The notes: generated by a model from the sequence alone, not told the origin. A stretch of DNA of 32,000 nucleotides from Kineococcus radiotolerans SRS30216 = ATCC BAA-149 (GCF_000017305.1 NC_009664.2:1950001-1982000), one strand, 5' to 3'. Shown: positions 743 to 21,845, counted from the first letter of the stretch. Made by a program: numbers and translations.

Positions 743-784
743 GAACTCACGTCACCCGGTCAATAGACCGGCCCTGACGATTGC

Positions 785-4058: not shown

Positions 4059-4420
4059 AGTGACTCGGTGACGGAACTGAACGTACACGAGAGTCACACC
4101 AGCAACACGGGGAGTAACAGAAGATCCAGAGCCCTCACGGCGTGTCGCAACAGTCTTACGGCCTGTGACCTGCGGTTTTGTGTCCGGCAGGTAAAAGTCA
4201 CAGTTTAGTAACGAGCGCCTCACCCGTCTCGCCCGCCCCAGACCACCCGTACGGAGTAGTCACATCAGGTGGGGTCACCACCCACGCACGGGCCATGACC
4301 CCGTGTGACTCGTGTGGGTGACTCCGACCGGACCCCTCCTCCCCGGTCGTCCGCAGCTCCCGTCGCCCTCTGTGACGAAGACGATCACGCGCCGGATCCC
4401 TGGCACACCGGGGGCGTCAC
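4059..4420. repeat. array of 11 GTGAC/GTCAC-core octamers (consensus kGTGACTc) in both orientations within the divergent intergenic region
   Basis: GTGAC at 4060, 4068, 4165, 4305, 4318 and 4372. GTCAC at 4093, 4197, 4259, 4274 and 4415. Six copies extend to TGTGAC. Includes the interrupted inverted repeat CTGTGACCTGC (4163-4173) / GCAGGTAAAAGTCACAG (4188-4204). Confidence 0.7.
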
Positions 4421-4467
4421 GGGATCGGCCCATCCAGCTCGTGCACCCGTGCACCGATGCCCCTGCC

Positions 4468-6696: not shown

Positions 6697-6712
6697 GGAG
6701 ACCCGGCCGGCT

Positions 6713-6729
6713 GTAGCCGATCCGGCTAC
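6713..6729. promoter_or_regulatory. 7-bp inverted repeat GTAGCCG-atc-CGGCTAC immediately upstream of the antitoxin gene
   Basis: Perfect stem 6713-6719 / 6723-6729. It sits 17 nt after the upstream stop and 10 nt before the antitoxin GTG. It could be a TA autoregulatory operator or a small terminator hairpin. Confidence 0.3.
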
Positions 6730-6738
6730 CGTCGTTCC

Positions 6739-7065
6739 GTGAAGACCATCAGGGGGCGCGACCTGCGCAACGACTACGCCCGGATCCTGCGCGAGATCGA
6801 AGGCGGGGAGACCTTCACGGTGACCAGCGACGGGCGCCCCGTCGCGAGCATCACGCCCTACACCGCTCCCGACGGTCCTCAGACCTGGGTCCCCGCCGAC
6901 CGGGCCATCGGCGGACTGGCCCACCTCGGTCTCCCCGACGACTTCGCGGAGACCTTGCGCCGCGACCTCGACGAGCACTTCGTCACCGAGGTCGAGGACC
7001 CGCTGGAGCGGTGGGAAGCCCAGCAGGCCGAACTCGGGCAGGACGAGGAGCCGGGCAGCCGGTGA
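6739..7065 (+). CDS. type II antitoxin, Phd/YefM family
   Basis: The N-terminus MKTIRGRDLRNDYARILREIEGGETFTVTSDGRPVASITPY matches the Phd/YefM pattern (..REL/DLRxxxxxxLxxVexGExxxVTxxGRPVAxLxP). The stop overlaps the downstream PIN gene start by 4 nt (GTGA). Confidence 0.8.
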   Translation: MKTIRGRDLRNDYARILREIEGGETFTVTSDGRPVASITPYTAPDGPQTWVPADRAIGGLAHLGLPDDFAETLRRDLDEHFVTEVEDPLERWEAQQAELGQDEEPGSR

Positions 7066-7466
7066 CGAACCTGCTGCTCGACACCAACGCCGTCATCACG
7101 ATGGCGGCCGCACCCCCGGGCACCACCTTCGCCGGGATCCAGGACGGCGACGTGCTGGCCATCTCGACGGTGACGGAACTGGAGGTGCGGCTCGGCGTCG
7201 GGTTGCGACCGGGCAACGTGCACCTGCTGCAGACGCTGGCCTGGCTGACCCGGAACTACCGCGGCATCCCCACCGACGCTGCGGTGGTGGCGGCCTTCCC
7301 GGTGATCGTCGCCTCCGCCGTGGCCGCCGGGCAGAGCCCGGAGCGGCGCATCGCCGATCTGACCATCGCAGCGACGGCTCTCGCCCACGGCGCCACGTTG
7401 ATCACCGACGACAGGACGCTGCGCAACGCCCTCACCGGCGCGGTGGCGACGCGATCCCTGCAGTGA
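7062..7466 (+). CDS. vapC: PIN-domain ribonuclease toxin (VapC family)
   Basis: The start at GTG 7062 overlaps the antitoxin stop. The sequence VTNLLLDTNAVI.. carries the acidic PIN residues (LLDTN, TELEV, IADLTIAATA, LITDD). 134 aa, typical VapC size. Confidence 0.85.
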   Translation: MTNLLLDTNAVITMAAAPPGTTFAGIQDGDVLAISTVTELEVRLGVGLRPGNVHLLQTLAWLTRNYRGIPTDAAVVAAFPVIVASAVAAGQSPERRIADLTIAATALAHGATLITDDRTLRNALTGAVATRSLQ

Positions 7467-8486: not shown

Positions 8487-8701
8487 CGGTCGGCTCTCCT
8501 GAACCTCGTGCGGGTCGTCCGGGGCCATCGTCCCCCCGGCGCCGGGCCCGCGCCCGGCCCGCCCGCCGCCCCGGTCCGGCGAGGGCCCGAGGGTGGTCCG
8601 GGGGGTTCCGTCCGCGCCACCACCCCCCTCGCGCCGGGGCCGGTCTTCTGGAAGTGTTCTCGCCATCCAGTGACGCTCCGTGGTCGGAGGGAGACTCAAA
8701 C

Positions 8702-10897
8702 GTGCTTGCCCTCGGGGTGCTGCGCGTCGTCCTCCTCCTCGCCGCCTGGTACGTCCTGCGCGGGCAGGCGCGCGCCGCGGAGGCCGGGAGCCGCATCTGG
8801 AACAGCCACGCCGCCGCCGTCGGCGTCCTCGCCGCGGGGGCGCTCGCGAGCCTCGTCCCCACCCTCGTCGGGCTCCCCGCGCAGTGGGCGGCGGACGTCT
8901 TCTCCGCCACCACGCTGCCCGCCTGCCTGCTCGTCTACCGCGGGATGGCCACCTACCACCGCCTCCACTCCGCCACCGGAGAGGTCGCGGACTGGCTGGT
9001 GGCCCTCAGCTGCGTGCTCACGGCCACCGCCGCCGCGAACCTCCTGCTGCAGACCGGCGTCCTGCACAGTCCCCTCACCGGCCCGGCGCTGCAGCACCGA
9101 CTGCTGACCGTCGCCTCCGTCACCGTCGTGCTCGCGGTCCTGCTGCGGGTCGTGCGCACCAGCCGGGCCGTCGACGCCCGCACCACCCTGCTCCTCACCG
9201 GGTCGCTGCTGAGCGTGCTGCTGGCCCACGTGTGGGTGACCCTGGCCGTCGTCAGCCCGCTCGCCCGCACGGGCCTCTCCTTCACCTGGGTCGCCTTCGC
9301 CGGCGCCCTCGCCCACACCGTCGTCCGCCGGCGCAACGACACGACCCGCCCCCTCACCACCTCGCCGCTGTCCACGACCACCACCGCCTTCGCCACCCTG
9401 CTCGCCGGGGTCGGCGTCATCACCGCCACCACCCTGCAACCGGGCGACGGGCGGCTGCGCTGGTCGGTGGTCTGGGCCGTGCTGGCCGTGCTGCCCGTGG
9501 CCGGCCGGATCCGGCAGCTCGTGCGGGGCCTGGTCCACCACGACCGCGTCCAGCGCGAGGCCGCCACCGACGAGCTCACCGGGCTGCCCAACCGGCGCGC
9601 CTTCACCGCCGCGCTGGAGACCGCCACCCGCGAGCGGCGGCCCGCGACCGTGCTGCTCATCGACCTCGACCGCTTCAAGGAGGTCAACGACCGCTACGGG
9701 CACGCCACCGGTGACCGGCTGCTGCAGCACGTCAGCCGCGCCTTCACCGGCGTCCTGCCCGCCGGGGCCCTGCTCGCCCGCCTCGGCGGCGACGAGTTCG
9801 CCGTCCTGCTCACCGCCGCCCCCCACGCCGGCGACCCGGACCTCTCCCTGCGGACCGCCCACCACGTGGGCACCGCCGCCGAGCGCGACCCCCTCGACGG
9901 GGTGCACCAGGTCGTCGCCAGCGTCGGCGTCGTCACCACCGACGGCCTCCAGCACCTGCAGGGGGAGGACCTGCTGCGCCGCGCCGACGCCGCGATGTAC
10001 GTCGCCAAGGCCGGCGGGGGCGGGGTCGGCGTCCACGACGACGCCGCCGCGCGGCGGTGGCGCCGGCACGAGGCCCTCGCCCTCGGCCTCCTCGACACCT
10101 TCTCCCCCGCCGCGGGCGCCACCACCCGCGAGGAGTTCGAGGTCCACTACGAGCCGCAGGTCACCCGCGAGGGCTGGACCGCCGGGGTCCGGGCGTCGCT
10201 GCGGTGGTCCCACCCCGTGCTGGGGGTGCTGGACCCGCCCGAGTTCCTCGGGGTCGCCGAGGAGCTGCGGCTGCTGCCGGAGCTGACGACGCACCTGGTG
10301 ACCCGCGGGTGCGCCGACCTCGCGCGGTGGCGGGCCGCCGGCCACGACGTGCGGCTGTCCTTCCCCGTCGACCCCCTCCAGCTCACCGACCCGCGGCTGC
10401 TGGACCTGCTGGACGCCGTCGTCGCCGCCGGGACCGACCCCCGGCTGCTCGTGGTGGGGACCACCGCGGCGGTCTTCGCCGACGACCCCGAGAGCGCCAC
10501 CCGCACCTGCCGCGAGATCGACGCCCGCGGCTGCGGCCTGTCCATCGACGACTTCGGGACGGGCTGGCCCTCCCTGGCCCACCTGGCGGCCCTGCCCGTC
10601 GGGGAGGTCACCGTCGACGCCGCGCTGACCGCCCGCCTCCTCCTCGACCCGCGCGTCGCGACCGTCGTCGCCGCCGCGGTCGGGTTCGCCCACCACCTCG
10701 GCCTGCGCGTCGTCGCCGACGGGGTCGCCGACGCGACGACCCTGGACCTGCTGCACGGGATGGGCTGCGACCTCACCCGGGGGCCCCTGCACGGCCGGCC
10801 CGTCCCCGCGGGCGGGCTGCACCTGACCCTGCCGATCCCCGTCCCGCGCCCCACCCCGCACCCCGTCCCGTCGGCGCTGGACCCCACCCGCACCTGA
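8702..10897 (+). CDS. polytopic membrane protein with intact GGDEF domain and degenerate EAL domain
   Basis: The ORF runs 8654-10897. GTG 8702 is preferred as the start because GGAGGGAG (8687-8694) lies 7 nt upstream. GGDEF motifs: TDELTGLPNRR, DLDRFKEVNDRYGH, ARLGGDEFAVLL, RADAAMYVAKAGGG. EAL-fold region with lost catalytic motifs: ASL for EAL, SFPVD for xVNxS, VVGTT for ELTE, VTVD for KxD, ADGVAD for EGVE. Only DDFGTG is retained. Confidence 0.85.
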   Translation: MLALGVLRVVLLLAAWYVLRGQARAAEAGSRIWNSHAAAVGVLAAGALASLVPTLVGLPAQWAADVFSATTLPACLLVYRGMATYHRLHSATGEVADWLVALSCVLTATAAANLLLQTGVLHSPLTGPALQHRLLTVASVTVVLAVLLRVVRTSRAVDARTTLLLTGSLLSVLLAHVWVTLAVVSPLARTGLSFTWVAFAGALAHTVVRRRNDTTRPLTTSPLSTTTTAFATLLAGVGVITATTLQPGDGRLRWSVVWAVLAVLPVAGRIRQLVRGLVHHDRVQREAATDELTGLPNRRAFTAALETATRERRPATVLLIDLDRFKEVNDRYGHATGDRLLQHVSRAFTGVLPAGALLARLGGDEFAVLLTAAPHAGDPDLSLRTAHHVGTAAERDPLDGVHQVVASVGVVTTDGLQHLQGEDLLRRADAAMYVAKAGGGGVGVHDDAAARRWRRHEALALGLLDTFSPAAGATTREEFEVHYEPQVTREGWTAGVRASLRWSHPVLGVLDPPEFLGVAEELRLLPELTTHLVTRGCADLARWRAAGHDVRLSFPVDPLQLTDPRLLDLLDAVVAAGTDPRLLVVGTTAAVFADDPESATRTCREIDARGCGLSIDDFGTGWPSLAHLAALPVGEVTVDAALTARLLLDPRVATVVAAAVGFAHHLGLRVVADGVADATTLDLLHGMGCDLTRGPLHGRPVPAGGLHLTLPIPVPRPTPHPVPSALDPTRT

Positions 10898-10961: not shown

Positions 10962-13343
10962 GTGAACGCACGGTCCCTCCGCCGGCCCGGCGCGCCCGCG
11001 CCGGTGCGGAGCGTGCTCTTCGCCGCGCTGTTCCTCGTCGCCGTGCACCTGGGCCGGCTCAGCGTCGTCGACGGCGCCGGGCCCGCCGTCGTGTGGCCCG
11101 CCGCCGGGGTGGCCGCGGCCTGGTTCAGCGTCCAGCGCGCCACCAGCACCCGCTGGTCCGACCGCTGGCTCGACGTGCTCCTCATCACCGCCGTCACCGT
11201 CGCGGTGAACGCGGCCACCGGCGCCGGGGCCGTCCTCGTCGTGGGGTTCGTCGTCGCGAACCTGCTGCAGGCGGAGCTGTTCGCGGCCCTGCGCCGGCGC
11301 TGGTTCACCCCCTCCGTGGCGCTGCTGGGCACCCGCCAGCTCGCGGTGCTGCTGGCCGCCACCACCGCGGCCTGCGCGGTCGGCACCGCCGTCGGCACCG
11401 TCGTCGTCGCGCTGGACGGGTCACCGCCGGACTGGACGTCGGTCGCGATCTGGTTCACCCGCAACTGGGCCGGGATCCTGCTCGTCACCCCCGTCCTGCT
11501 GCGGCTGGTCCTCCGCGTCCCCGTCCGGTGGCCGGTGGGGACCGCCGCCACGGCGGAGCTGACCGCCGCCCTCGCCGTCTCCGTCCTCGCCTACGTCGGG
11601 GTGTTCTGGGCCGTCGACGGGCTGCCGCTGGCGTTCCTGCCGCTGGCGGCCACGATCTGGCTGGCCCTGCGCTTCGACACCACGATCGTCGTCGTCGCCG
11701 GTCTCGTCGTCGCCACCACCACGGTGCTGGGCACCCTCGCCGGGCACGGGCCGTTCGCCGCCGTCCCCGACGACCTGACGCGGATCCTCGTCGTGCAGGT
11801 CCACGTGGGCTTCCTCGCCGCCCTCGGCCTCGCCCTCGCCGTCGGCCGCGACGAGCGGGCCTCCCTGGTGGCGCGGCTCTCCGCCGCGAGCGCCGAGGCC
11901 CAGGCCGCGCGCGCGGAGGCCGAGCACCGGGAGCGGTTCGCGGAGGCGGTCCTGGCCGGTGTCGGCACCGGGATCGTCGTGTCCGACCCGCAGGGGCGCC
12001 TCGTCACGTTCAACGACACCGCCCGCGCCTGGCACGGCCTCGACGCCGACGCCGACCTGGACCCCGTCCAGCACGCGGGGACCTACCACCTCTTCGCCGC
12101 CGACGGCTCCACCCCGCTGACCCACGCCGAGATCCCCCTGGTGCGCACGCTGCACGAGGGCCGGGTCAGCGCCGCCGAGATGGTCATCGCCCGCCCGGGC
12201 CGGCCCCCCGTCCCCGTCGTGTGCAGCGGGCGGACCGTGGTCGGCGCGGACGGGGAGGTCCTGGGGGCGGTCGTGGCGATGCACGACCTCACCGACACCC
12301 GGGCCCGGGAGGCGGACCTGGCCGCGGCGAACGCGCGCCTGGCCGCGCACGTGGCCCAGGTGGAGCGGCTGGCGGCGGCCTCGCGGGCCGTCCTGACCGC
12401 GGAGGACCCGCGGCGGGCGGTCGTGGCGGCGGCGGTGGAGATCGCCGGGGCCGAGGCCGCCTACCTCCTGCAGCCCGACGGGCAGGGCCGGCTGGTGTCG
12501 ACCTCGACGACCGGGCTGCCCGAGGACCTCGTCCTGAGCCTGGACCTGGACGGGCCGACGACCCTGGTGGTCGGCAGCTACCTGGACGGGGAGGCGCTGT
12601 TCGTCCCCGACGTCGCGACGCACCCGCGGGCCGACCCCCGCCTCATCGAGGTCTGCGGGACGGTCTCGGGGGCCTGGCAGCCCGTCGTGGACGCCGGCGG
12701 GCAGGTCGTGGGGGTGCTCGGCATCATCTGGCGCGAGCCGGTGGCGGTGCTGGAGCCCACGACGGCCGCGGTGCTGCAGGGCCTGGCCGCGGAGGCGGCG
12801 CACGCCTTCGCCCGCGCGGACCTGCTGGCCCGGCTGGCCCGCGACGCCCAGCACGACGCGCTCACCGGGCTGGTCAACCGCCGCCGCTGGGACGCCCTGG
12901 CCCGCCGGGAGATCCGCCGGGCGGGGCGCCACCGGACGCCGCTGACGTTCGCGCTGCTGGACCTGGACCACTTCAAGCTCTTCAACGACACCCGCGGCCA
13001 CCTCGCCGGGGACGAGCTGCTGCGGGGGTTCTCCCTGGCGGCCGGGGCGCAGCTGCGCGAGCTGGACACGCTCTCGCGGTGGGGGGGCGAGGAGTTCGCG
13101 CTGCTGCTGCCCGGCTGCACCGCCGCCGACGCGGTGGACGTGGTGGACCGGATCCGCGCCGTCGTCCCCGAGGGGCAGACCTGCACCGCGGGGATCTGCG
13201 AGTGGCTGCCGGGGACGGAGGCCGCGGAGGTCATGGCCGCCGCCGACCGGGCCCTGTACCGGGGCAAGGAGGTGCGCGACACGACCGTCGTCGGGTCCGT
13301 CCTGGACGTGCCCGCCCCCGCCGCCGGGGTCCCGGAGCGCTGA
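10962..13343 (+). CDS. MASE1-PAS-GAF-GGDEF diguanylate cyclase
   Basis: N-terminal membrane domain with a MASE1-like signature (AVHLGRLSVV..PAVVWPAAGVAAAWF). PAS (GIVVSDPQGRLVTFNDTARAWHG...). GAF (AYLLQPDGQGRLVSTS...GVLGIIWREP). GGDEF (DALTGLVNRR, DLDHFKLFNDTRGH, SRWGGEEFALLL) with an RxxD I-site (RELD) 5 residues upstream. The exact start is uncertain; alternatives are GTG 11004 and 11013. Confidence 0.85.
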   Translation: MNARSLRRPGAPAPVRSVLFAALFLVAVHLGRLSVVDGAGPAVVWPAAGVAAAWFSVQRATSTRWSDRWLDVLLITAVTVAVNAATGAGAVLVVGFVVANLLQAELFAALRRRWFTPSVALLGTRQLAVLLAATTAACAVGTAVGTVVVALDGSPPDWTSVAIWFTRNWAGILLVTPVLLRLVLRVPVRWPVGTAATAELTAALAVSVLAYVGVFWAVDGLPLAFLPLAATIWLALRFDTTIVVVAGLVVATTTVLGTLAGHGPFAAVPDDLTRILVVQVHVGFLAALGLALAVGRDERASLVARLSAASAEAQAARAEAEHRERFAEAVLAGVGTGIVVSDPQGRLVTFNDTARAWHGLDADADLDPVQHAGTYHLFAADGSTPLTHAEIPLVRTLHEGRVSAAEMVIARPGRPPVPVVCSGRTVVGADGEVLGAVVAMHDLTDTRAREADLAAANARLAAHVAQVERLAAASRAVLTAEDPRRAVVAAAVEIAGAEAAYLLQPDGQGRLVSTSTTGLPEDLVLSLDLDGPTTLVVGSYLDGEALFVPDVATHPRADPRLIEVCGTVSGAWQPVVDAGGQVVGVLGIIWREPVAVLEPTTAAVLQGLAAEAAHAFARADLLARLARDAQHDALTGLVNRRRWDALARREIRRAGRHRTPLTFALLDLDHFKLFNDTRGHLAGDELLRGFSLAAGAQLRELDTLSRWGGEEFALLLPGCTAADAVDVVDRIRAVVPEGQTCTAGICEWLPGTEAAEVMAAADRALYRGKEVRDTTVVGSVLDVPAPAAGVPER

Positions 13344-13378: not shown

Positions 13379-13852
13379 TCAGCCTCCCAGCGGGAGGGCG
13401 TTCCAGCGGCTGGTGAAGGCGAGGCCGCTGCGCTGGAAGAGCTGGGTGACGGGGCAGCGGCGCTCGGTCTCGCTGCGCAGCCGCGCGAACTGCTCCGGGG
13501 TGGCGTCGGTCCCGAGGTCCACCTCGACGGTGACGGCGACGAAGTTCGCGTTGCCCTCCGCCCCGGTGGAGATGACCGACGGGTCGAGGTCGCCCTGGGC
13601 GCGCAGGCGCCACGTCCCCAGGGTGAGGCCCAGGTCGCGGGCGACGAGGCTGCCCGTCACCTGGTGGCAGGACGTGAGCGCGCCGAGGGCGTAGCTCAGC
13701 GGGCTGGGCTCGGCGTCGGCGCCGCCGAAGGCGGGCAGGGTGTCGGCGCGGAAGCGGTGGGGGTGGGCGCCGGGGGCGGTGACGGTCTGGGCGACACCGC
13801 TCCCCTCGGCCTCGACGACGAAGGGGACGGTCGGCCGGGAGCCATCGGTCAC
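13379..13852 (-). CDS. OsmC/Ohr-family peroxiredoxin-like protein
   Basis: Two-Cys OsmC pattern (PSPLSYALGALTSCHQV and ERRCPVTQL). The start is placed at GTG 13850-13852 because AGGAGG lies 8 nt upstream. The ORF itself extends to 13870. Confidence 0.85.
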   Translation of the reverse strand: MTDGSRPTVPFVVEAEGSGVAQTVTAPGAHPHRFRADTLPAFGGADAEPSPLSYALGALTSCHQVTGSLVARDLGLTLGTWRLRAQGDLDPSVISTGAEGNANFVAVTVEVDLGTDATPEQFARLRSETERRCPVTQLFQRSGLAFTSRWNALPLGG

Positions 13853-13965
13853 GGGGGGTTCCTCCTGCACGGCGCGACCCGGCGGTCGGGTGCGCGGGGC
13901 GACCGTACGACGGCGGGCCGCGCGCGGCGCGGGGACGGGCGGCCCGCCGGGTCCAGCCGCCGGGC

Positions 13966-14241
13966 TCAGCGCAGGAGGGCGACCTCGCGCCGGGGCAGGA
14001 CGAGGCGCTCGCGCAGGAACGTCTGGACGTTGGCGCCGAGGGGGTCCCCGGCCTGCGCCTTGCCGGGGTCGTCGAGCCCGCGCTCGCGCCGGGGGACGGG
14101 GATCGCGGCGGCGCGCAGCGAGTTCAGCAGCCGCCGGGAGTAGGTCCCGGTGTGCAGGCAGAGCCGGGCCTCCTCGCGGAGGTCGTCGTCGAGACCGTCG
14201 TACCAGTCTTCATAGGTGGCGATCACGCAGTCAGTGTGCAC
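13966..14241 (-). CDS. hypothetical protein (91 aa)
   Basis: ORF with strongly G/C-biased third positions, upstream of and co-oriented with OsmC. No family recognised and the start is uncertain. Confidence 0.4.
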   Translation of the reverse strand: MHTDCVIATYEDWYDGLDDDLREEARLCLHTGTYSRRLLNSLRAAAIPVPRRERGLDDPGKAQAGDPLGANVQTFLRERLVLPRREVALLR

Positions 14242-14379
14242 TCCCGCCGTTCACCGGAGCGCCACTCTGCCGCCACCCGAGCAGCACTGCGACGCAGCGT
14301 GTTCGAGTGACCTCGTTGCGCGACGGGCGGGTGGCGGCGCCGCCCCCGCTCCCCACCGCCCCGCGCCGAGCGGGTCACC

Positions 14380-14399
14380 CACCCGCGGAGTCGCGGGTG
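14380..14399 (+). promoter_or_regulatory. GC-rich hairpin covering the candidate SD and GTG start of the LOV phosphatase gene
   Basis: CACCCGCG (14380-14387), loop GAGT, CGCGGGTG (14392-14399): a perfect 8-bp stem. GGAG (14387-14390) and GTG (14397-14399) lie inside the structure. Confidence 0.3.
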
Positions 14400-16568
14400 T
14401 CCGGAGCCGCGATTACGCTCCTCCCGATGGACGGGACCAGATCCGCCTTCGCCGGCGACCTCCTCACCGGCGGAGCCGCCGTCGCGGGACTGCCCCGCGT
14501 CGTGCAGGGGCAGCCGGGGGCAGTCCTCCTCGTGCACGTCGCCGAGGGGACGGTCCTCTTCGCCAACCCCCTCGCCGAGCAGCTCGCCCCGCGCACCGCG
14601 CTGCCCTGCAGCGTCGACGACTGGTCGCGCGCGGCGGGCCTGGAGTCCACCGCCGGCGACGACATCACCGACCCGGCCAACGCCGCCTCCCCCCTCTCCC
14701 GCATCGCCCGCGGCGAGCCCGTGCACGGCGAGCGCGTCACCGCCGCCCGCTCCTCGGACATGTCCGAGGAGCGCGAGGCGCTGTGGGTCATCGGGCTGCC
14801 GATGAACGACGCCCCCGTCGACGAACTGTCCTCCCTCGCGCTGGTGGTGCTGCTGCCGCTGCGCGAGGAGGGGATGGTCCGCGAGGCCCAGGAGTCCGCC
14901 GAGCGCCTGCACAGCCGCGCCGTGCTGGCCAGCGACCTGTCCTTCACCATCTCCGACCCCACCAAGCCCGACAACCCCCTGGTCTGGACGAACCCCGCCT
15001 TCGAGCGGGTCACCGGCTACGGCCGCGAGGTCCTGGGCCAGAACTGCCGCTTCCTGCAGGGCCCCGGCACCGACCGCGAGGCCGTGGCCCGGATCCGGCG
15101 CGCCCTGGAGACCGGGGACACCGTCACCGAGCTCTTGCTCAACTACCGCAAGGACGGCACGGCCTTCTGGAACGAGGTCGTCATCTCCCCCGTGCACGAC
15201 GCGGACGGGCGGCTGACCCACTTCGTCGGCGTGCAGTCCGACGTCACGCTGCGGGTGCAGGCCGAGCGCGAGCGCGACGCGGCCCTCCTCGACGCCCGCG
15301 ACGCCCGTCACCGCCTGGAGTTCCTCTCCTCGGTCACCGACCGGCTCTCCGAGGTCCTGGACCCCGACACCGCCCAGGACCTCCTGCCCTCGCTGGTCGT
15401 CCCCGACTTCGCGGAGTGGGCGTTCGCCACGCTGCTCGACGGCAACGGGCGGGCCCGCCACGTCCGGGCCTCGCACGCGAACCCGGCGCTGGCCACCGAC
15501 GTCGAGCGGTTCCAGGACCTGCACACCGCGCTGGGCGAGGAGTCGATCTCGCTGCAGGTGCTGCGCGGGAGACTGGGCCCGACGCTGGTGACCGTCCGCG
15601 ACCGCCACCTCGAGACCGGGGTCACCACCGCGGAGGCCGCCACCCTGCTGCGCCGCCTCGGCCTGGGCAGCGCCATCGTCGTCCCGCTGCGCGCGCGGGG
15701 GGAGGTGAGGGGTTCGCTGACCCTGCTCTCCGGCCCGGACCGGCCCCCCTTCACCGAGGACGACCTGGCCACCGCCACCGACCTCGGCGCCCGCGCCGGG
15801 GTCGCGCTGGAGAACGCCCGCCTCTACGCCCAGCAGCGGCAGTCCTCGGAGACGCTGCAGCGCAGCCTGCTGAGCCCGCCGACGCGGTCGGCGGGCCTCT
15901 CGATCGCGACGCGGTACCACCCCGCCGCCGAGGCCGCGCAGGTCGGCGGCGACTGGTACGACGCCTTCACCCAGCCCGACGGCTGCACCGTCGTCGTCAT
16001 CGGCGACGTGATGGGGCACGACGTGTCCGCCGCCGCCGCGATGGGCCAGCTGCGGACGCTGGTGCGCGGGCTGGCCTACGACCGCTCCGCGCAGCCGGAC
16101 GAGGTCCTGCGCCGCCTGGACCGGCTGCTGGCCGGGCTGGGGCTGACGACGCTGGCCACGGCGATCGTGCTGCAGCTGGACGCCCTCGCGCCCGACGGCA
16201 CCGGGGACGGCAGCCGCGGGATCCGCTGGTGCACCGCCGGCCACCTGCCGCCCGTGGTGGCCGAACCGGACGGCTCGGTGCGGCTGCTGCCCGGCGAGGG
16301 GATCGTCCTGGGCCTCGGCGCCGGGCAGGACCGCGTCCAGCAGGAGGCGCGGCTGGCGCTGGGCTCGACGCTGCTGCTCTACACCGACGGGCTGGTGGAG
16401 CGGCGCGACCAGTCCATGGAGGTCCGCCTCGCCGAGCTGCGCGAGGCCGTGGCCGACCTCGGGAACCAGCCGGTCGAGGCGCTGTGCGACGGGCTGGTGG
16501 AGCGGATGCTGCCGAAGGGCAGCGACGACGACGTCGCCATCGTCGCGGTCCGCGTCGTCGAGGTCTGA
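14397..16568 (+). CDS. PAS-like / LOV / GAF / PP2C (SpoIIE-type) serine phosphatase; putative blue-light receptor
   Basis: The ORF track shows 13740-16568, but the first 219 codons overlap opposite-strand genes. Candidate starts are GTG 14397 (GGAG 6 nt upstream) or ATG 14427. LOV domain about 14931-15248: ISDPTKPDNPLVWTNPAFERVTGYGREVLGQNCRFLQGPGTD...NYRKDGTAFWNEVVISP...FVGVQSDVT, with the adduct Cys codon at 15045-15047. GAF: SAIVVPLRARGEVRGSLTLL. PP2C: VGGDWYDAF, VVIGDVMGHD, LLLYTDGLVE. Confidence 0.9.
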   Translation: MSGAAITLLPMDGTRSAFAGDLLTGGAAVAGLPRVVQGQPGAVLLVHVAEGTVLFANPLAEQLAPRTALPCSVDDWSRAAGLESTAGDDITDPANAASPLSRIARGEPVHGERVTAARSSDMSEEREALWVIGLPMNDAPVDELSSLALVVLLPLREEGMVREAQESAERLHSRAVLASDLSFTISDPTKPDNPLVWTNPAFERVTGYGREVLGQNCRFLQGPGTDREAVARIRRALETGDTVTELLLNYRKDGTAFWNEVVISPVHDADGRLTHFVGVQSDVTLRVQAERERDAALLDARDARHRLEFLSSVTDRLSEVLDPDTAQDLLPSLVVPDFAEWAFATLLDGNGRARHVRASHANPALATDVERFQDLHTALGEESISLQVLRGRLGPTLVTVRDRHLETGVTTAEAATLLRRLGLGSAIVVPLRARGEVRGSLTLLSGPDRPPFTEDDLATATDLGARAGVALENARLYAQQRQSSETLQRSLLSPPTRSAGLSIATRYHPAAEAAQVGGDWYDAFTQPDGCTVVVIGDVMGHDVSAAAAMGQLRTLVRGLAYDRSAQPDEVLRRLDRLLAGLGLTTLATAIVLQLDALAPDGTGDGSRGIRWCTAGHLPPVVAEPDGSVRLLPGEGIVLGLGAGQDRVQQEARLALGSTLLLYTDGLVERRDQSMEVRLAELREAVADLGNQPVEALCDGLVERMLPKGSDDDVAIVAVRVVEV

Positions 16569-16587
16569 AGCCCCAGCCCCCGGGCCC

Positions 16588-16956
16588 TCAGACCGGCAGG
16601 TCGCACCAGACGGTCTTGCCCGCCGGCTCCGGCCGCACCCCCCACGCCGAGCACACCGTCTGGACCAGGTTGACGCCGCGCCCGGACTCGGCCTCCGGGC
16701 CGGGCGCGGAGACCCGCGGCGGGGCGGCGCTGCCGTCGCTGACCTCCAGGTGCAGCACGCCGGAGCGGCACTCCACCCCGGCCCGCACCGGCGGTTCCCC
16801 GTGCTCGACGGCGTTGACGGCGAGCTCGGAGACGACCAGCAGGGCCCGGTCCAGGAGCTCGCCCCCGTGCTGGGGACACAGGCGCGCCCGCACGAACGCC
16901 CGGGCCTCACGCGCCGCGGACAGGTCCGCGGGCAGGTCCAGGCCGGCTTCCGGCAT
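16588..16956 (-). CDS. RsbW-like anti-sigma-factor serine kinase (HATPase_c_2-type ATP-binding protein)
   Basis: N-box SELAVNAVEHG, VSDGS, GRGVNLV. Size is about 122 aa from ATG 16954-16956; the ORF extends to 17037. It is convergent with the LOV-PP2C gene, with 19 nt between the stop codons. Confidence 0.75.
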   Translation of the reverse strand: MPEAGLDLPADLSAAREARAFVRARLCPQHGGELLDRALLVVSELAVNAVEHGEPPVRAGVECRSGVLHLEVSDGSAAPPRVSAPGPEAESGRGVNLVQTVCSAWGVRPEPAGKTVWCDLPV

Positions 16957-17108
16957 CGCCTCGCACACCCCCCCATGGTGCGGGCGGGACGGGTGGGCCG
17001 CGTCTGGTAGAGGGTGCAACCACCTGACGGGCGCCACCCCCGCGCGGGGGTTACCGTCGGAGCGCGCGACGACGCGTGCCCCCGACCGCGAACCGCCCAG
17101 GAGTCCCC

Positions 17109-18152
17109 GTGCCCACCACCGTCAAGGCGTACGCCGCCACGTCCGCCACCGAGCCGCTGACCCCCTTCGAGGTCGAGCGCCGCGACGTCGGCCCCAAGGA
17201 CGTCAAGATCGACATCGCCTTCGCCGGCATCTGCCACTCCGACATCCACACCGCCCGCAGCGAGTGGGGCCCCGCCGCCTACCCCGTCGTCGTCGGCCAC
17301 GAGATCGCCGGCACCGTCGCCGAGGTCGGCTCCGAGGTCACGAAGTTCGCCGTCGGCGACCGCGTCGGCGTCGGCTGCATGGTCGACTCCTGCGGGGAGT
17401 GCAAGAACTGCACCGCGGGGAACGAGCAGTTCTGCCTCGAGGGCAACGTCGGCACCTACAACAGCGTCGGCAAGGACGGGCAGCCCACCCACGGCGGCTA
17501 CTCCCAGTCCATCGTCGTGACCGAGGGCTTCGTCCTGCGCATCCCCGAGGGCATCGAGCTCGACGAGGCCGCGCCGCTGCTGTGCGCGGGCATCACCACC
17601 TACTCCCCGCTGCGGCACTGGGGCGCGGGCCCGGGCAAGAAGGTCGCCGTCGTCGGCCTCGGCGGGCTCGGCCACATGGCCGTCAAGATCGCCGCCGCCA
17701 TGGGCGCGGAGGTCACCGTGCTCTCGCAGTCGCTGAAGAAGCAGGAGGACGGGCTGCGCCTGGGCGCGACCCACTACTACGCCACCTCCGACGACTCCAC
17801 CTTCGAGGACCTCAAGGGTTCCTTCGACCTCATCGTCAACACCGTCAGCGCGCAGCTGGACTTCGACAAGTTCCTCTCGCTGCTCGACGTCAACGGCGCG
17901 ATGGTCAACGTCGGCCTGCCCGAGGACCCGATCTCGCTGCAGATGTTCTCCGTGGTCATGGGCAACCGCAGCTTCGCCGGTTCCAACATCGGCGGCATCG
18001 CCGAGACCCAGGAGATGCTCGACTTCTGCGCCGAGCACCACATCGGCTCCGACGTCGAGACGATCCCCGCGGAGAAGATCAACGAGGCCTACGAGCGCGT
18101 CCTGGCCTCCGACGTGCGCTACCGCTTCGTCATCGACACCGCCACGCTCTGA
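17109..18152 (+). CDS. zinc-dependent NAD(P) alcohol dehydrogenase (cinnamyl-alcohol-dehydrogenase-like MDR family)
   Basis: GICHSD, GHEIAG, structural-zinc cluster [15 protein letters not shown], Rossmann motif [13 protein letters not shown]. The start at GTG 17109 has AGGAG 6 nt upstream; the ORF extends to 17076. Confidence 0.9.
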
Positions 18153-18267: not shown

Positions 18268-19872
18268 GTGTCCCCCGCCGAGGTGAGCCCCCCGCGACGC
18301 GCCTGGCGCGACGCCGGGCTGCGCCGCAAGCTGAACGCCCTCACCGCGGTCGCCGTCCTCGGCGTCGGGGCCGTCGCCGCGCTCACCGCCGGCGTCCTGC
18401 AGGACACCGCCGCCGCGACGGCGCGCCTGGAGCGCGCCACCACCGCCACGCGGGCCACCCTCGAAGCGGACATGGCCCACGACGCGCTGCGCGCGAACGT
18501 CCTGCAGTCGCTGCTCTTCCCCACCGGCGAGCGCTACGCCCAGGCCCTCGACGGCGGCACCGAGGCCGCGGAGTCCCTGGGCGCCCACCTGCTCACCGTG
18601 CGGGCCGCCCGGCTGGGCCGCACCGTCGGGACCGCCGTCGACGACGCCGCCCCCGCCGTGAGCGACTACGGCCGCGCCGGGCGGGACCTCATCGTCCTGG
18701 CCGCCGCCGACCCGGCCGCCGCCCGCGACGCCTACCCCGCCTTCCTGGAGCGGTTCGAGGACGTCGAGGCCCTGCTGCCCGCCGTCGCCGACGCCGTCGC
18801 GGTGCAGGTGTCGGCCCAGAACGCCGAGGTCGCCGCCACCCGCTCGCGCAGCTACCGGCTGCTCGCCGCCGTCGTCGCTCTGACCGTGGGCGCCGCCCTG
18901 GTGGTGGCGCGGCTGGTGACCCGCAGCGTCGTCCACCCCCTGGACCGGGTCGGGGTCGTCGTGGCCGCCGTGCGCGACGGGGACCTCACCCGCCGCAGCC
19001 GCCTCACCTCCCGCGACGAGGTCGGGCGCACCGCCGCGGCCCTCGACGACGCCCTCGACGCGCTGAGCGGCCTCGTCCGCGGCATCACCGGGACCGCCGA
19101 CCGCCTCGAGGCCGCCACCGGTGCCCTCAGCTCCTCCTCCGGGCACATCGAGCGCTCCAGCGCCGACTCCACCCGGCTCGCCTCCTCCGCCGTCGAGGAG
19201 GCCCACCGGGTCTCCGAGGCCGCCGAGGGCATGGCCGCCTCCGGCGAGGAGATGGCCGGCGTCATCGCCCGGGTCGCGCACAGCGCCGCCACCTCCCGGG
19301 AGGTCTCCGCGCAGGCCGTCGACGCGGCCGGGACGACCTCCGCCGTCGTGCACCGCCTCGCCACCTCCAGCCGGGAGATCGGCACGGTCGTGCAGGCCAT
19401 CGCCGCCATCGCCGCCCAGACCAACCTGCTCGCTCTCAACGCCACCATCGAGGCCGCGCGCGCCGGGGAGTCCGGCCGCGGGTTCGCCGTCGTCGCCGGC
19501 GAGGTCAAGACCCTGGCCCGCGAGACCGCCGCGGCCACCGAGGAGATCACCCGCACCGTCGCCGCCCTGCAGGCCGACAGCGACGACGCCCGCCGGCAGA
19601 TCGAGGCGATCTCCGCCGTCGTCGACCGCGTCTCGCAGTTCCAGGGCACCATCGCCGCCGCCGCCGACGAGCAGACCCGCGTCAGCGCCGAGAACACCCG
19701 CCGGGTCGCGCTCGTGGCCCGCTCCACCCGCGCCTCGGTGGGCGACCTCACCACCCTGGCCGCCAGCGTCACCACCACCGCCGACCGCGGCCGCGACACC
19801 GGCGCCGCGGCGACGGAGGTCGCCGCCGCCAGCGACGACCTGCGGGCCGCCGTCACCCGCTTCCGCGTCTAG
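18268..19872 (+). CDS. methyl-accepting chemotaxis protein (two TM segments, periplasmic helical sensor, HAMP, MA domain)
   Basis: TM1 [23 protein letters not shown] and TM2 [26 protein letters not shown]: [20 protein letters not shown]. Conserved hairpin tip: [34 protein letters not shown]. The start is uncertain within the first ~6 codons. Confidence 0.9.
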
Positions 19873-21150: not shown

Positions 21151-21759
21151 GTGTTCGGAGCCGGGAAGTGGTCGGAGAGCGAGGTCCTGGTCGGCTACCT
21201 CGACCAGCAGCTGGAGGCGATCCGGGCCTCGGCGCACGGGCTGAGCGAGGAGCAGGCGCGGGCGACGCCGTGCCGCAGCGCGCTGTCCGTGGGCGGGCTC
21301 CTCAAGCACGTCGTGCACGTGCTGGAGGGCAGGCTGGGCAGCAGCGCCCAGCCGACCGCGGAGGAGGTGGCGCGGTTCACGGCGAGCTTCTCCCTCGGCG
21401 AGGGCGAGACCCTCGCCGGGACGCTGGAGGCCTTCGACCGCGTCCGGGCGCAGTACCTGGCGCGGGTCTCGTCCACCGACCCCGCGGACGAGGTGCTGGA
21501 GCCGCCGGCCCCGTGGTTCGGGGTGCTCGACCCGACGCCGTCGGTGCAGCGCTACCGGCTGGTCCACCACGTCGAGGAGCTCGCCCGCCACGCCGGGCAC
21601 GCCGACATCCTGCGGGAGCAGCTGGACGGGGCGTCGTCGCCGTCGCTGCTGGCGGCGGTGCACGGGTGGCCGGCCAACGACTTCGTCCAGCCGTGGACGC
21701 CGGGCACCGGCGGGGACGACGCGCCCCGGGCGGTGGGACGGCCCGGCGCCGGCGGCTGA
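21151..21759 (+). CDS. DinB-family / DUF664-type protein
   Basis: The GTG start has AGGAGG 6 nt upstream. His-rich four-helix signature: LLKHVVHVLEG ... LVHHVEELARHAGHADILREQLDG. Confidence 0.8.
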   Translation: MFGAGKWSESEVLVGYLDQQLEAIRASAHGLSEEQARATPCRSALSVGGLLKHVVHVLEGRLGSSAQPTAEEVARFTASFSLGEGETLAGTLEAFDRVRAQYLARVSSTDPADEVLEPPAPWFGVLDPTPSVQRYRLVHHVEELARHAGHADILREQLDGASSPSLLAAVHGWPANDFVQPWTPGTGGDDAPRAVGRPGAGG

Positions 21760-21845
21760 GCCCCCCGGGCCGGTCCCGGGAGCCATCCGGGTGGTTGAGC
21801 CTCCAACTAGATTTCTGGCACCCGTTCGCGTCCGACAGTGACGGG

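What the first reader, a model, noticed from the sequence alone, without database searches (positions are those of the whole stretch)
14397..16956. LOV domain fused to GAF and a PP2C phosphatase, tail-to-tail with an RsbW-like kinase: a one-protein light input to partner switching
Residues encoded at about 14931-15248 carry every LOV hallmark I can check by eye. These are GQNCRFLQGPGTD with the adduct-forming Cys (codon 15045-15047), NYRKDGTAFWNEVVISP, and FVGVQSDVT with the conserved Gln. The region is near-collinear with the YtvA LOV core as I remember it. It is preceded by a PAS-like region and followed by a GAF domain and a SpoIIE/PP2C phosphatase domain.

The next gene is convergent, with 19 nt between the stops. 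It encodes a small HATPase_c_2 protein of the RsbW/SpoIIAB anti-sigma kinase type.

In Bacillus, blue light reaches sigma-B indirectly, through YtvA, the stressosome, RsbT and RsbU, while the PAS-PP2C protein RsbP senses energy stress. Here the photosensor appears to be wired directly onto the phosphatase. LOV-SpoIIE architectures have been listed in LOV censuses, but I know of no biochemical characterisation.

No STAS anti-anti-sigma substrate and no sigma-factor gene lie in the window, so the partners are unidentified.
Basis: partly seen in the sequence, partly recalled or inferred. Interest (0 to 1): 0.72.

Follow-up and report, generated by a model that had tools for sequence, protein, structure and literature searches.

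The report
Catalogued LOV-GAF-PP2C blue-light phosphatase gene
This is a real gene for a blue-light-sensor (LOV) domain fused to a protein phosphatase in Kineococcus radiotolerans, but this exact protein and its domain layout are already listed in a published census of bacterial light sensors; its function is untested and its link to the neighbouring small kinase gene is only weakly supported.

Summary
Window 14397/14427-16568 (+) encodes a 723/713-aa protein with five parts: a divergent PAS domain, a canonical LOV domain, a long J-alpha helix, a GAF domain and a PP2C (SpoIIE-family) phosphatase. A convergent HATPase_c_2 gene starts 19 nt after the stop. No STAS or sigma gene lies in the window.

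The window is from Kineococcus radiotolerans SRS30216. This exact protein (A6W4U8, 723 aa) is listed as "LOV+GAF+SPOIIE" in the supplement of Losi, Mandalari and Gartner 2014. In that census, (PAS+)LOV+GAF+SPOIIE is the commonest actinobacterial LOV architecture. I found no biochemical study of any member.

Results beyond the census:
- Flavin-contact and metal-binding residues are (near-)invariant in 88 orthologues.
- The LOV-to-GAF linker varies only by +7, +21 or +35 residues. The GAF-to-PP2C spacing is invariant. Both fit signalling through a coiled coil.
- The small kinase gene is adjacent in only 5 of 25 distinct LOV-PP2C loci, falling in 3 lineages. Within Kineococcus the whole downstream block is syntenic, so that adjacency says little.
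- The kinase's closest relatives outside Kineococcus sit in operons with other GAF-PP2C genes, or are fused to STAS.

A light-gated partner-switching phosphatase is plausible but unproven, and the domain layout itself is already known.

The parts
14397..16568 (+). Gene for the PAS-LOV-GAF-PP2C protein. It is 723 aa from GTG 14397, as in the database record (A6W4U8 / YP_001360101.1). It is 713 aa from ATG 14427, the start shared with other Kineococcus orthologues.
   Evidence: ORF and motifs. GC3 is 0.92. It is 100% identical to the K. radiotolerans SRS30216 protein P0001. Start-codon comparison is in the alignment.
14520..14897 (+). N-terminal divergent PAS-fold domain (residues 42-167). No cofactor motif was recognised. 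It is joined to LOV by a low-confidence linker (residues 168-177).
   Evidence: AlphaFold2 models have pLDDT about 85-95 over this domain. The Foldseek top hits are PAS/LOV structures, including EL346 LOV and the Rv1364c PAS domain (E about 1e-3, TM about 0.5). There is no Pfam hit even at E<=1. N57, P70, W76, A80 and G111 are invariant in 88 orthologues.
14937..15242 (+). LOV core (residues 181-282). It contains GQNCRFLQG, the adduct Cys217 (codon 15045-15047) and the flavin-contact residues R218, Q221, R234, N249, N259 and Q280.
   Evidence: PAS_9 E 3.8e-20. YtvA-family model 135 bits and LOV-HK model 133 bits. Solved LOV domains match at E 1e-37. The model superposes on Brucella LOV-HK and Chlamydomonas phot-LOV1 at 0.7-0.9 A rmsd with 50-52% identity. 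Conservation in 88 orthologues: Cys 86/88, R218/Q221/N249/N259/Q280 88/88, R234 76/88.
15246..15350 (+). J-alpha helix / LOV-to-GAF linker (residues 284-318).
   Evidence: It is modelled as a single 35-residue helix. Across homologues its length changes only by +7, +21 or +35 residues. Hydrophobic periodicity peaks near 3.6 residues, but this is only marginal against shuffles (0.05).
15363..15728 (+). GAF domain (residues 323-444).
   Evidence: Pfam GAF E 8e-9, GAF_2 E 2e-7 and GAF_3 E 3e-6. Model pLDDT is above 90.
15756..15869 (+). Long helix linking GAF to the phosphatase (residues 454-491).
   Evidence: It is a single helix in the model. The GAF(DNARLY)-to-PP2C(GGDWYD) spacing is identical in 114 of 114 scorable homologues and in 88 of 88 aligned sequences.
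15897..16556 (+). PP2C / SpoIIE-family (PPM) Ser/Thr phosphatase domain (residues 501-720), with an intact metal-binding Asp set: D519, D537, D664, D711/D712.
   Evidence: SpoIIE E 2.4e-41. The closest solved relative is the Rv1364c phosphatase domain 3ke6 (phmmer E 1.9e-25; Foldseek E 1.3e-15 with 35% identity). D519, D537, G540, H541, D664, D711 and D712 are invariant in 88 of 88 sequences.
16569..16587 (.). 19-nt spacer between the two convergent stop codons. No intrinsic-terminator-like hairpin was found.
   Evidence: Sequence read directly. The terminator scan of 13800-17300 found nothing.
16588..16968 (-). Small stand-alone HATPase_c_2 protein of the RsbW/RsbT/SpoIIAB fold. It is annotated as 126 aa. 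The ORF could extend to GTG 17037 (149 aa) or start at ATG 16956 (122 aa). It is a possible but unproven partner.
   Evidence: HATPase_c_2 E 2.9e-11. A weak match to the RsbA anti-sigma family. Annotated 126 aa in K. radiotolerans. The N-box (E48, N52), D78 and the GRG motif are invariant in 24 homologues, but the G1 box is not the canonical DxGxG. There is no sequence hit to any solved structure.

Best explanation
The gene encodes a soluble, one-protein blue-light receptor whose output is a PP2C-type Ser/Thr phosphatase.

Proposed mechanism:
1. The LOV core binds FMN.
2. Blue light forms the Cys217-flavin C4a adduct, and Gln280 reorients.
3. The change passes from the LOV beta-sheet into the J-alpha helix.
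4. In a parallel homodimer, that helix runs as a coiled coil into the GAF domain. A second fixed-length helix then reaches the alpha-0/alpha-1/alpha-2 switch region of the PP2C domain.
5. This alters metal binding and dimerisation there, and so changes phosphatase activity.
6. The most likely substrate is a phosphorylated STAS-domain anti-sigma-factor antagonist encoded elsewhere in the genome. If so, light would shift a partner-switching equilibrium and release an alternative sigma factor.
7. The convergent HATPase_c_2 protein may be the opposing kinase, but this is the weakest step.

Shown here: the domain order, intact photochemical and catalytic residues, the heptad-quantised and fixed-length linkers, and wide conservation in Actinobacteria.

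Inferred: FMN binding, the photocycle, the sign of the regulation (whether light activates or inhibits), the substrate, the sigma factor and the role of the neighbour.
For: Architecture:
- Pfam and NCBIfam domain calls.
- The AlphaFold2 model has mean pLDDT 88.4 and shows PAS-like 42-167, LOV 181-282, helix 284-318, GAF 323-444, helix 454-491 and PP2C 501-720.

Photochemistry:
- The LOV core superposes on solved LOV domains at 0.7-0.9 A, with matches to E 1e-37.
- The adduct Cys is present in 86 of 88 orthologues. R218, Q221, N249, N259 and Q280 are present in 88 of 88.

Catalysis: all metal-binding Asp residues are present in 88 of 88.

Signal path:
- The LOV-to-GAF spacing takes the values 51, 58, 72 and 86 residues, that is +7, +21 and +35. 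These come from at least five sequence-distinct insertions.
- The GAF-to-PP2C spacing is invariant in 114 of 114.
- This matches the dimeric coiled-coil linker mechanism described for RsbU and predicted for PAS-, GAF-, RR- and HAMP-linked PPM phosphatases (PMC12143880).

Partner-switching context:
- The closest solved phosphatase is Rv1364c, a PAS-PP2C-RsbW-STAS fusion protein.
- Non-LOV paralogues often have an adjacent or fused HATPase_c_2 and STAS.
- Homologues of the small kinase include STAS-kinase fusions and kinase-to-GAF-PP2C operons.

Adjacency of a HATPase_c_2 gene recurs in three separate branches of the LOV-PP2C tree. Those kinases are mutual best hits in the local set.
Against: - Nothing is shown experimentally. 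I found no study of any LOV-PP2C protein in the searchable literature.
- No STAS and no sigma gene lies in the window. Only 1 of 25 distinct LOV-PP2C loci has a STAS gene within 6 kb.
- The kinase is missing beside 20 of 25 orthologous loci.
- In Kineococcus the two genes are convergent, so they are not co-transcribed. They also sit in a larger syntenic block with the ADH and MCP genes.
- The best-hit margins among the LOV-adjacent kinases are small, 63 versus 59 bits.
- The kinase's G1 box is non-canonical, so ATP-dependent kinase activity is not assured.
- The hydrophobic heptad periodicity of the linkers is only marginal (shuffle fractions 0.05 and 0.26).
- The structure is a monomer prediction, so the dimer is assumed.
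Confidence: 0.6

Rival explanations
1. The protein is a light-regulated partner-switching phosphatase, but the convergent HATPase_c_2 gene is just a neighbour retained by synteny. The real kinase, STAS and sigma partners are all encoded elsewhere.
For: - Adjacency is absent in 20 of 25 LOV-PP2C loci from other genera.
- In K. rubinsiae and K. siccus the ADH and MCP genes downstream are conserved as well, so the pair is not specifically retained.
- The orientation is convergent with a 19-nt spacer, so there is no operon.
- Actinobacterial genomes carry many HATPase_c_2 paralogues (established knowledge for Streptomyces).
Against: - Adjacency recurs in three separate branches of the LOV-PP2C tree. 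Two of these are co-directional, with gaps of 50 and 115 nt.
- The LOV-adjacent kinases are each other's best hits in the local set.
- The closest relatives outside the genus sit directly upstream of other GAF-PP2C genes. This kinase subfamily therefore pairs with PP2C genes repeatedly.
Confidence: 0.35
2. The small HATPase_c_2 protein is an RsbT-like direct regulator. It would bind the sensor and linker region of the phosphatase and tune its activity, rather than act as an RsbW-like anti-sigma factor.
For: - RsbT and RsbW share the HATPase_c_2 fold, and RsbT activates RsbU by binding its N-terminal domain and linker (PMC12143880).
- Pfam cannot separate the two roles.
- The LOV-PP2C protein has a conserved N-terminal PAS-like domain of unknown role that could be a docking site.
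- Kinase-to-PP2C two-gene operons exist without a STAS gene.
Against: - No stressosome (RsbR/RsbS) genes are nearby.
- The weak NCBIfam match is to the RsbA anti-sigma family.
- Homologues are fused to STAS, as expected for an RsbW-type kinase-antagonist pair.
- The N-terminal PAS domain is conserved in lineages that lack the adjacent kinase.
Confidence: 0.12
3. The phosphatase does not act on STAS partner-switching proteins at all. It would dephosphorylate other Ser/Thr phosphoproteins, such as Hanks-kinase substrates or FHA-protein partners, or serve a non-catalytic scaffolding role.
For: - STAS is absent from 24 of 25 LOV-PP2C neighbourhoods.
- Gene neighbours are highly variable, with no conserved operon partner.
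- The related PP2C domain of P. aeruginosa RssB is among the hits. The E. coli RssB orthologue is known to act as a proteolysis adaptor rather than an enzyme (established knowledge).
Against: - The catalytic Asp residues are invariant in 88 of 88 sequences, which argues for an active enzyme.
- SpoIIE-family (PF07228) phosphatases with PAS/GAF sensors that have been studied act on STAS proteins. Examples are RsbP, RsbU, OsaC and Rv1364c, named in PMC12143880.
- The nearest solved relative, Rv1364c, is fused to its kinase and STAS.
Confidence: 0.12
4. The LOV domain works mainly as a flavin redox or oxygen sensor, or constitutively, and light is not its physiological signal in this soil and desiccation-adapted heterotroph.
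For: - Some LOV proteins have light-independent roles. YtvA and LovK are discussed in this sense in PMC4844311.
- Two orthologues naturally carry Ser in place of the adduct Cys.
Against: - The adduct Cys is kept in 86 of 88 orthologues, along with every photocycle residue. That is the signature of selection for photochemistry.
- Kineococcus species are pigmented, surface- and biocrust-dwelling organisms exposed to sunlight (PMC7601052 abstract).
Confidence: 0.08

Closest known systems
LOV+GAF+SPOIIE / PAS+LOV+GAF+SPOIIE class of actinobacterial LOV proteins in the Losi, Mandalari and Gartner 2014 census (PMC4844311, Supplement S1)
   Same: It is this class. The census lists K. radiotolerans SRS30216 A6W4U8 / YP_001360101.1, 723 aa, as LOV+GAF+SPOIIE. 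It lists the same layout in Geodermatophilus, Modestobacter, Cellulomonas, Frankia, Beutenbergia, Rubrobacter and Actinomycetospora.
   Different: Nothing differs in architecture. The census omitted the N-terminal PAS-like domain for this entry. It gives no neighbourhood, linker or residue analysis, and no member has been characterised.
Bacillus subtilis YtvA (LOV-STAS) and the stressosome-RsbT-RsbU route to sigma-B
   Same: It has the same LOV photochemistry motifs, with a collinear match to the YtvA-family model (135 bits). The likely end point is the same: a PP2C acting on a STAS antagonist.
   Different: YtvA has a STAS output and signals indirectly through the stressosome and RsbT to a separate PP2C. 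Here LOV and PP2C are one polypeptide with a GAF domain in between, and no stressosome genes are nearby. The score is far below the YtvA equivalog cut-off (135 versus 250 bits), so it is not a YtvA orthologue.
Mycobacterium tuberculosis Rv1364c (PAS-PP2C-RsbW kinase-STAS fusion; PDB 3ke6, 3k3c)
   Same: It is the closest solved phosphatase domain (35% identity). A PAS sensor lies N-terminal to the PP2C. Its PAS domain is among the fold hits to the N-terminal domain here.
   Different: Rv1364c carries its kinase and STAS in the same chain and has no LOV or GAF domain. Here the kinase-like protein is a separate convergent gene and STAS is absent from the locus.
Sensor-linked PPM phosphatases of the general stress response: RsbP (PAS), C. 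difficile RsbZ (GAF-GAF), S. coelicolor OsaC (kinase-PAS-GAF-PP2C) and RsbU
   Same: It has the same layout of a sensor domain, a helical linker and a SpoIIE-family PP2C. The fixed and heptad-quantised linker lengths fit the dimeric coiled-coil activation model proposed for this group (PMC12143880).
   Different: Those sense energy stress, partner proteins or unknown ligands. None has a flavin photosensor. OsaC has its HATPase_c_2 domain fused at the N-terminus, whereas here it is a separate gene.
LOV histidine kinases (Brucella LOV-HK, EL346, engineered YF1)
   Same: Both have a LOV core followed by a J-alpha coiled coil that transmits the signal to a dimeric catalytic output. The LOV cores are 50% identical and superpose at under 1 A.
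   Different: The output is a Ser/Thr phosphatase rather than a histidine kinase, and a GAF domain is interposed.

Membership tests
LOV photosensor domains (flavin-binding PAS subclass) | PAS fold with the GXNCRFLQ motif containing the adduct-forming Cys | tested here: met
   GQNCRFLQG has Cys217 at codon 15045-15047. PAS_9 E 3.8e-20. The model superposes on solved LOV domains at 0.7-0.9 A rmsd.
LOV photosensor domains (flavin-binding PAS subclass) | Flavin-contact residues: two Arg, two Asn and two Gln, including the signalling Gln on the I-beta strand | tested here: met
   R218, Q221, N249, N259 and Q280 are present in 88 of 88 orthologues, and R234 in 76 of 88. The mapping to YtvA residue numbers is from memory.
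LOV photosensor domains (flavin-binding PAS subclass) | Binds FMN and shows a reversible 450-to-390 nm photocycle | not testable with these tools
   This needs protein expression and spectroscopy. No publication on any LOV-PP2C protein was found.
PPM / PP2C phosphatases, SpoIIE family (PF07228) | Profile match over the whole catalytic domain | tested here: met
   SpoIIE E 2.4e-41, covering profile positions 1-191 of 192. Rv1364c 3ke6 matches at E 1.9e-25.
PPM / PP2C phosphatases, SpoIIE family (PF07228) | Conserved metal-binding Asp residues in the GGDxxD, DVxGHx, TDG and C-terminal DD motifs | tested here: met
   D519, D537, G540, H541, D664, D711 and D712 are invariant in 88 of 88 sequences. 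D522 is present in 87 of 88.
PPM / PP2C phosphatases, SpoIIE family (PF07228) | Mn2+/Mg2+-dependent phospho-Ser/Thr phosphatase activity | not testable with these tools
   A biochemical assay is required.
GAF domain | Profile match and GAF fold | tested here: met
   GAF E 8.4e-9 (36.5 bits against a cut-off of 22.4) and GAF_2 31.6 bits against 28.6. It is confidently modelled at residues 323-444. Any ligand is unknown.
RsbW/SpoIIAB-type anti-sigma Ser kinases (HATPase_c_2) | HATPase_c_2 fold with an N-box (E...N) and a G2-type glycine motif | tested here: met
   PF13581 E 2.9e-11. E48, N52, D78 and G96-R97-G98 are invariant in 24 homologues.
RsbW/SpoIIAB-type anti-sigma Ser kinases (HATPase_c_2) | Canonical G1 box (DxGxG) and demonstrated ATP-dependent STAS phosphorylation and sigma binding | tested here: inconclusive
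   The G1 region reads VSDGSA or VHDExx and lacks the second Gly. Only a weak, sub-threshold match to the RsbA anti-sigma family was found (40.5 bits against a cut-off of 210). Activity cannot be tested here. The fold cannot tell an RsbW-like role from an RsbT-like role.
Complete partner-switching module (PP2C + anti-sigma kinase + STAS antagonist + sigma factor) at one locus | A STAS anti-anti-sigma gene and a sigma-factor gene encoded with the phosphatase and kinase | tested here: not met
   No STAS and no sigma domain was found in any coding-like ORF of the 32-kb window. A STAS gene lies within 6 kb in only 1 of 25 distinct LOV-PP2C loci.
Complete partner-switching module (PP2C + anti-sigma kinase + STAS antagonist + sigma factor) at one locus | Conserved linkage of the kinase gene with the LOV-PP2C gene across orthologues | tested here: not met
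   The kinase is adjacent in 5 of 25 distinct loci (window, L004, L010, L006, L087) and absent in the rest.
YtvA family (NCBIfam NF052652 equivalog) | Score above the curated cut-off, and a LOV-STAS architecture | tested here: not met
   135.1 bits against a cut-off of 250. The match covers only the LOV core, and the output is GAF-PP2C, not STAS.

The most novel reading that the evidence does not exclude
The LOV-GAF-PP2C protein and the small HATPase_c_2 protein are an ancestral, dedicated light-controlled phosphatase/kinase pair. They would act on an unlinked STAS antagonist to set the activity of a stress or pigment sigma factor in sun-exposed Actinobacteria. On this reading the pairing was dispersed in most lineages. 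The heptad-quantised J-alpha/GAF relay would make this a natural, directly light-switchable Ser/Thr phosphatase. No member of this class has been studied biochemically, and it could be reused as an optogenetic tool.
Probability: 0.25. Interest if true: 0.55.

Novelty: already known. Interest (0 to 1): 0.3.

Why it matters
LOV-PP2C proteins are the most common LOV architecture in Actinobacteria, yet none has been characterised. Showing that light directly gates a PPM phosphatase would give a short, one-protein route from photon to partner switching, in contrast to the multi-step Bacillus route through YtvA and the stressosome. It would also test the coiled-coil linker model of PPM activation with a trigger that can be switched instantly, and could yield a light-controlled Ser/Thr phosphatase as a tool. 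As a genome-scan finding, however, it is a correct re-identification of a catalogued protein. The new material is limited to the linker-length rule, the residue conservation and the mostly negative neighbourhood analysis.

Tried and rejected
- Looking up the exact K. radiotolerans protein in the contig index returned nothing, so its wider genome context beyond the window could not be read.
- STAS seeds taken from the STAS-kinase fusions were too similar to one another and found nothing. I replaced them with three STAS sequences written from memory (SpoIIAA, RsbV, BldG). These converged on 10 hits in the loci and none in the window. This profile was not checked against Pfam, but the window was also scanned directly with Pfam.
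- Glantz et al. 2016 (PNAS), the larger LOV census, is not in the held library.
- Literature searches for LOV-SpoIIE, LOV-PP2C, LOV-PPM and related terms, and for Kineococcus plus LOV, gave no characterisation. The library holds only open-access papers, so a subscription-journal study could have been missed.
- Promoter and terminator scans of 13800-17300 found nothing. This is uninformative at 75% GC.
- I considered whether the dense GGDEF/EAL neighbours point to a c-di-GMP link and rejected it. K. radiotolerans has 116 such domains (PMC2587704), and they are not conserved next to orthologues.
- I considered whether the GAF-PP2C genes paired with the nearest kinase homologues (L088-L090) are orthologues of this protein's C-terminal half. 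They are not: identity is only 30%, and only over the PP2C domain.
- The hydrophobic heptad periodicity of the two linkers is marginal or non-significant. I rely on the indel lengths instead.

Full report
**1. What is in the sequence**

The window has about 76% G+C, and third-position G+C separates real genes cleanly. The finding's long ORF ends at TGA 16566-16568. It can start at GTG 14397 (723 aa) or ATG 14427 (713 aa).

Domain matches, numbered from GTG 14397:
- Pfam finds PAS_9 at residues 189-284 (E 3.8e-20), GAF/GAF_2/GAF_3 at 324-472 and SpoIIE at 527-720 (E 2.4e-41).
- The NCBIfam YtvA-family and LOV histidine-kinase models align collinearly to residues 166-315, at 133-150 bits. These scores are far below the equivalog cut-offs, because only the LOV core matches.

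Nineteen nucleotides after the stop, a convergent gene ends at 16588-16590. It encodes a small HATPase_c_2 protein (E 2.9e-11).

No other ORF with coding-like composition in the 32 kb carries a STAS or sigma-factor domain (local STAS profile).

**2. Source and prior knowledge**

The protein is 100% identical to a 723-aa "putative PAS/PAC sensor protein" of Kineococcus radiotolerans SRS30216.

The supplement of Losi, Mandalari and Gartner (Plants 2014, PMC4844311) lists three LOV proteins for that strain:
- A6W4U8 / YP_001360101.1, 723 aa, "LOV+GAF+SPOIIE". This is the protein in the finding.
- A6W4X7, 408 aa, LOV+SPOIIE.
- A6WG47, 743 aa, GGDEF+LOV+EAL.

In the same table, (PAS+)LOV+(GAF+)SPOIIE is the commonest actinobacterial architecture. 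It appears in Actinomycetospora, Beutenbergia, three Cellulomonas, three Frankia, Geodermatophilus, Modestobacter and Rubrobacter. The main text names SPOIIE phosphatases among the typical LOV outputs. The review's table of known LOV photobiology contains no phosphatase.

Full-text searches for any characterisation of a LOV-PP2C or LOV-SpoIIE protein found none. The library holds only open-access papers, and the Glantz 2016 census is not held.

The architecture, and this protein's place in it, are therefore already known. Its function is not.

**3. Anatomy**

An AlphaFold2 model built on 88 orthologues has mean pLDDT 88.4. It shows:
- a disordered N-terminus (residues 1-35);
- an alpha/beta domain (42-167);
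- a floppy linker (168-177);
- the LOV core (181-282);
- one continuous 35-residue helix (284-318);
- GAF (323-444);
- a second long helix (454-491);
- the PP2C domain (501-720).

Foldseek places the LOV core on Brucella LOV-HK and Chlamydomonas phot-LOV1 at 0.7-0.9 A with 50-52% identity. It places the phosphatase on M. tuberculosis Rv1364c (3ke6, E 1.3e-15, 35% identity). Sequence search agrees: 3ke6 matches at E 1.9e-25, followed by P. aeruginosa RssB.

The N-terminal domain has no Pfam match even at E<=1. Modelled alone (pLDDT 84), it retrieves only PAS/LOV structures, including the Rv1364c PAS domain, at weak scores (E about 1e-3, TM about 0.5).

**4. Conservation**

More than 100 full-length relatives of about 700 aa, at 43-86% identity, occur in Kineococcus, Pseudokineococcus, Cellulomonas, Actinotalea, Oerskovia, Jatrophihabitans and Frankiales-type metagenome-assembled genomes (MAGs). 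Further full-length relatives occur in Isoptericola, Nocardioides, Modestobacter and Blastococcus genomes.

In an 88-sequence alignment:
- The adduct Cys is present in 86 sequences; two have Ser.
- R218, Q221, N249, N259 and Q280 are invariant.
- The second phosphate-binding Arg (R234) is present in 76.
- In the phosphatase, D519, D537, G540, H541, D664, D711 and D712 are invariant.

It is not met, so the enzyme looks active.

**5. Linker rule (new here)**

I measured the distance from the LOV C-terminal motif (GVQxDVT) to the first GAF motif (PxLAxW). Of 111 scorable homologues, 99 have 51 residues, 6 have 58, 5 have 72 and 1 has 86. The differences are +7, +21 and +35.

The inserted segments fall into at least five sequence-distinct types. 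They represent several independent events, and all are multiples of seven.

The distance from the end of GAF (DNARLY) to the first catalytic motif (GGDWYD) is 45 residues in 114 of 114 homologues.

Hydrophobic periodicity in the first helix peaks at 3.6 residues but is only marginal against shuffles (0.05). In the second helix it is not significant.

Heptad-quantised or fixed linkers are the signature of signalling through a dimeric coiled coil. That is the mechanism recently shown for RsbU, and predicted for PAS-, GAF-, RR- and HAMP-linked PPM phosphatases (PMC12143880).

**6. The neighbouring kinase-like gene**

The database annotates it as 126 aa, starting at GTG 16968.

Its N-box (E48, N52), D78 and GRG motif are invariant among 24 homologues. 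Its G1 box is not the canonical DxGxG. It has no sequence hit to any solved structure.

I examined 25 distinct LOV-PP2C loci: the window, 16 from the genome scan and 8 from contig look-ups.

A HATPase_c_2 gene lies within 120 nt in five of them:
- The window, K. rubinsiae and K. siccus, where it is convergent.
- A Mycobacteriales MAG, where it is co-directional with a 50-nt gap.
- Jatrophihabitans sp., where it is co-directional with a 115-nt gap.

It is absent next to orthologues in Pseudokineococcus, Cellulomonas, Oerskovia, Isoptericola, Nocardioides, Modestobacter, Blastococcus and several MAGs.

Within Kineococcus the ADH and MCP genes downstream are conserved too, so that adjacency is ordinary synteny.

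The positive evidence is as follows:
- The three lineages with adjacency lie on separate branches of a crude LOV-PP2C tree.
- Their kinases are mutual best hits in the local set, by small margins.
- The nearest homologues of the kinase outside Kineococcus (44-49% identity) are each followed within 10-26 nt by a different GAF-SpoIIE gene. That gene is only 30% identical to this protein, over the PP2C domain.
- Other homologues are STAS-kinase fusions.

This kinase subfamily therefore works with PP2C and STAS proteins. Whether this copy works with this phosphatase remains open.

A STAS gene occurs within 6 kb of a LOV-PP2C gene in only one locus.

**7. Interpretation**

The best-supported reading is a soluble, dimeric blue-light receptor. 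Its LOV photocycle is relayed through the J-alpha coiled coil, the GAF domain and a fixed helical linker to a PP2C phosphatase. The likely substrate is a phospho-STAS antagonist encoded elsewhere.

The photosensor and enzyme parts are strongly supported by sequence and model. The relay is supported by the linker rule. The substrate class rests on family knowledge. The role of the neighbour is weak.

The rivals are:
- The neighbour is unrelated.
- The neighbour is an RsbT-like direct regulator.
- The substrates are not STAS proteins.
- The LOV domain senses redox state rather than light.

**8. Verdict**

The finding is a correct identification of a real, intact and widely conserved light-sensor-phosphatase gene. 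This exact protein and its architecture are already in a published census, so its novelty is low.

Its remaining interest is that no member of this common class has been studied. The new observations are the 7n linker rule, the invariant catalytic and photochemical residues, and the sporadic but recurrent kinase adjacency. They give concrete, testable handles.

Noticed in passing
window 15246-15350 (protein residues 284-318), and homologues P0072, P0076, P0089, P0097, P0104, P0106, P0107, P0111, P0116, P0119, P0120: The LOV-to-GAF linker differs among homologues only by +7, +21 or +35 residues, from at least five sequence-distinct insertions. The GAF-to-PP2C spacing is identical in 114 of 114 homologues. 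This points to a coiled-coil register constraint.
   Followed up: yes
Proteins P0062 and P0099 (orthologues; alignment A2 column of Cys217): Two natural orthologues have Ser instead of the adduct-forming Cys (GRNSRFLQGP) while keeping every other LOV residue. They may be adduct-less variants.
   Followed up: no
window 14520-14897 (residues 42-167): A conserved N-terminal PAS-fold domain has no Pfam match and no recognisable cofactor motif. N57, P70, W76, A80 and G111 are invariant in 88 orthologues. Its input or docking role is unknown.
   Followed up: partly
L082 8178-8657 and L083 4305-4784 (Cellulomonas carbonis): The Cellulomonas LOV-PP2C orthologue is convergent with a Pyr_excise (pyrimidine-dimer DNA glycosylase) gene, which is a UV-repair function. 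This could be coincidence or a light-related neighbourhood.
   Followed up: no
L088 5001-6675, L089 5001-6725, L090 5001-6714 (Actinomycetota MAGs): A conserved two-gene cassette, HATPase_c_2 kinase followed by a GAF-SpoIIE phosphatase of about 415 aa, sits beside NicO and multicopper-oxidase genes with no STAS gene nearby. The kinase is 44-49% identical to the window's small kinase.
   Followed up: partly
Proteins P0193, P0195, P0196, P0200, P0201: These 244-aa STAS-HATPase_c_2 fusion proteins are among the homologues of the small kinase. Antagonist and kinase are in one chain.
   Followed up: no
window 13966-14241 (-): A 91-aa ORF with strong coding-like composition (GC3 0.94) is divergent from the LOV gene. 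It has no Pfam hit and no counterpart in the K. rubinsiae or K. siccus loci.
   Followed up: partly
window 1-4000; gene 785-3976 (-): This region has lower G+C (66-68% against about 77%). It encodes a 1063-aa protein with three CWB2 cell-wall-binding repeats, which could be an acquired surface or S-layer-type protein.
   Followed up: no
window 6697-7065 (+) and 7011-7466 (+): A PhdYefM-like antitoxin ORF is followed by a PIN-domain toxin ORF. This looks like a VapBC-type toxin-antitoxin pair.
   Followed up: no
window 4312-6696, 8654-10897, 10962-13343, 21756-24122, 27032-28657: Five GGDEF and/or EAL genes lie in 32 kb, together with an MCP (18268-19872) and a PAS-HK/RR pair (29151-31025). This fits the reported 116 diguanylate-cyclase domains in this genome and is not specific to the LOV gene.
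   Followed up: yes
outside the window (K. radiotolerans chromosome, about 29 protein accession numbers beyond YP_001360101.1): The census lists a second, shorter LOV+SPOIIE protein (A6W4X7 / YP_001360130.1, 408 aa) in the same genome. The organism therefore has two LOV-phosphatases. The only LOV motif in the window is the one in the finding.
   Followed up: partly
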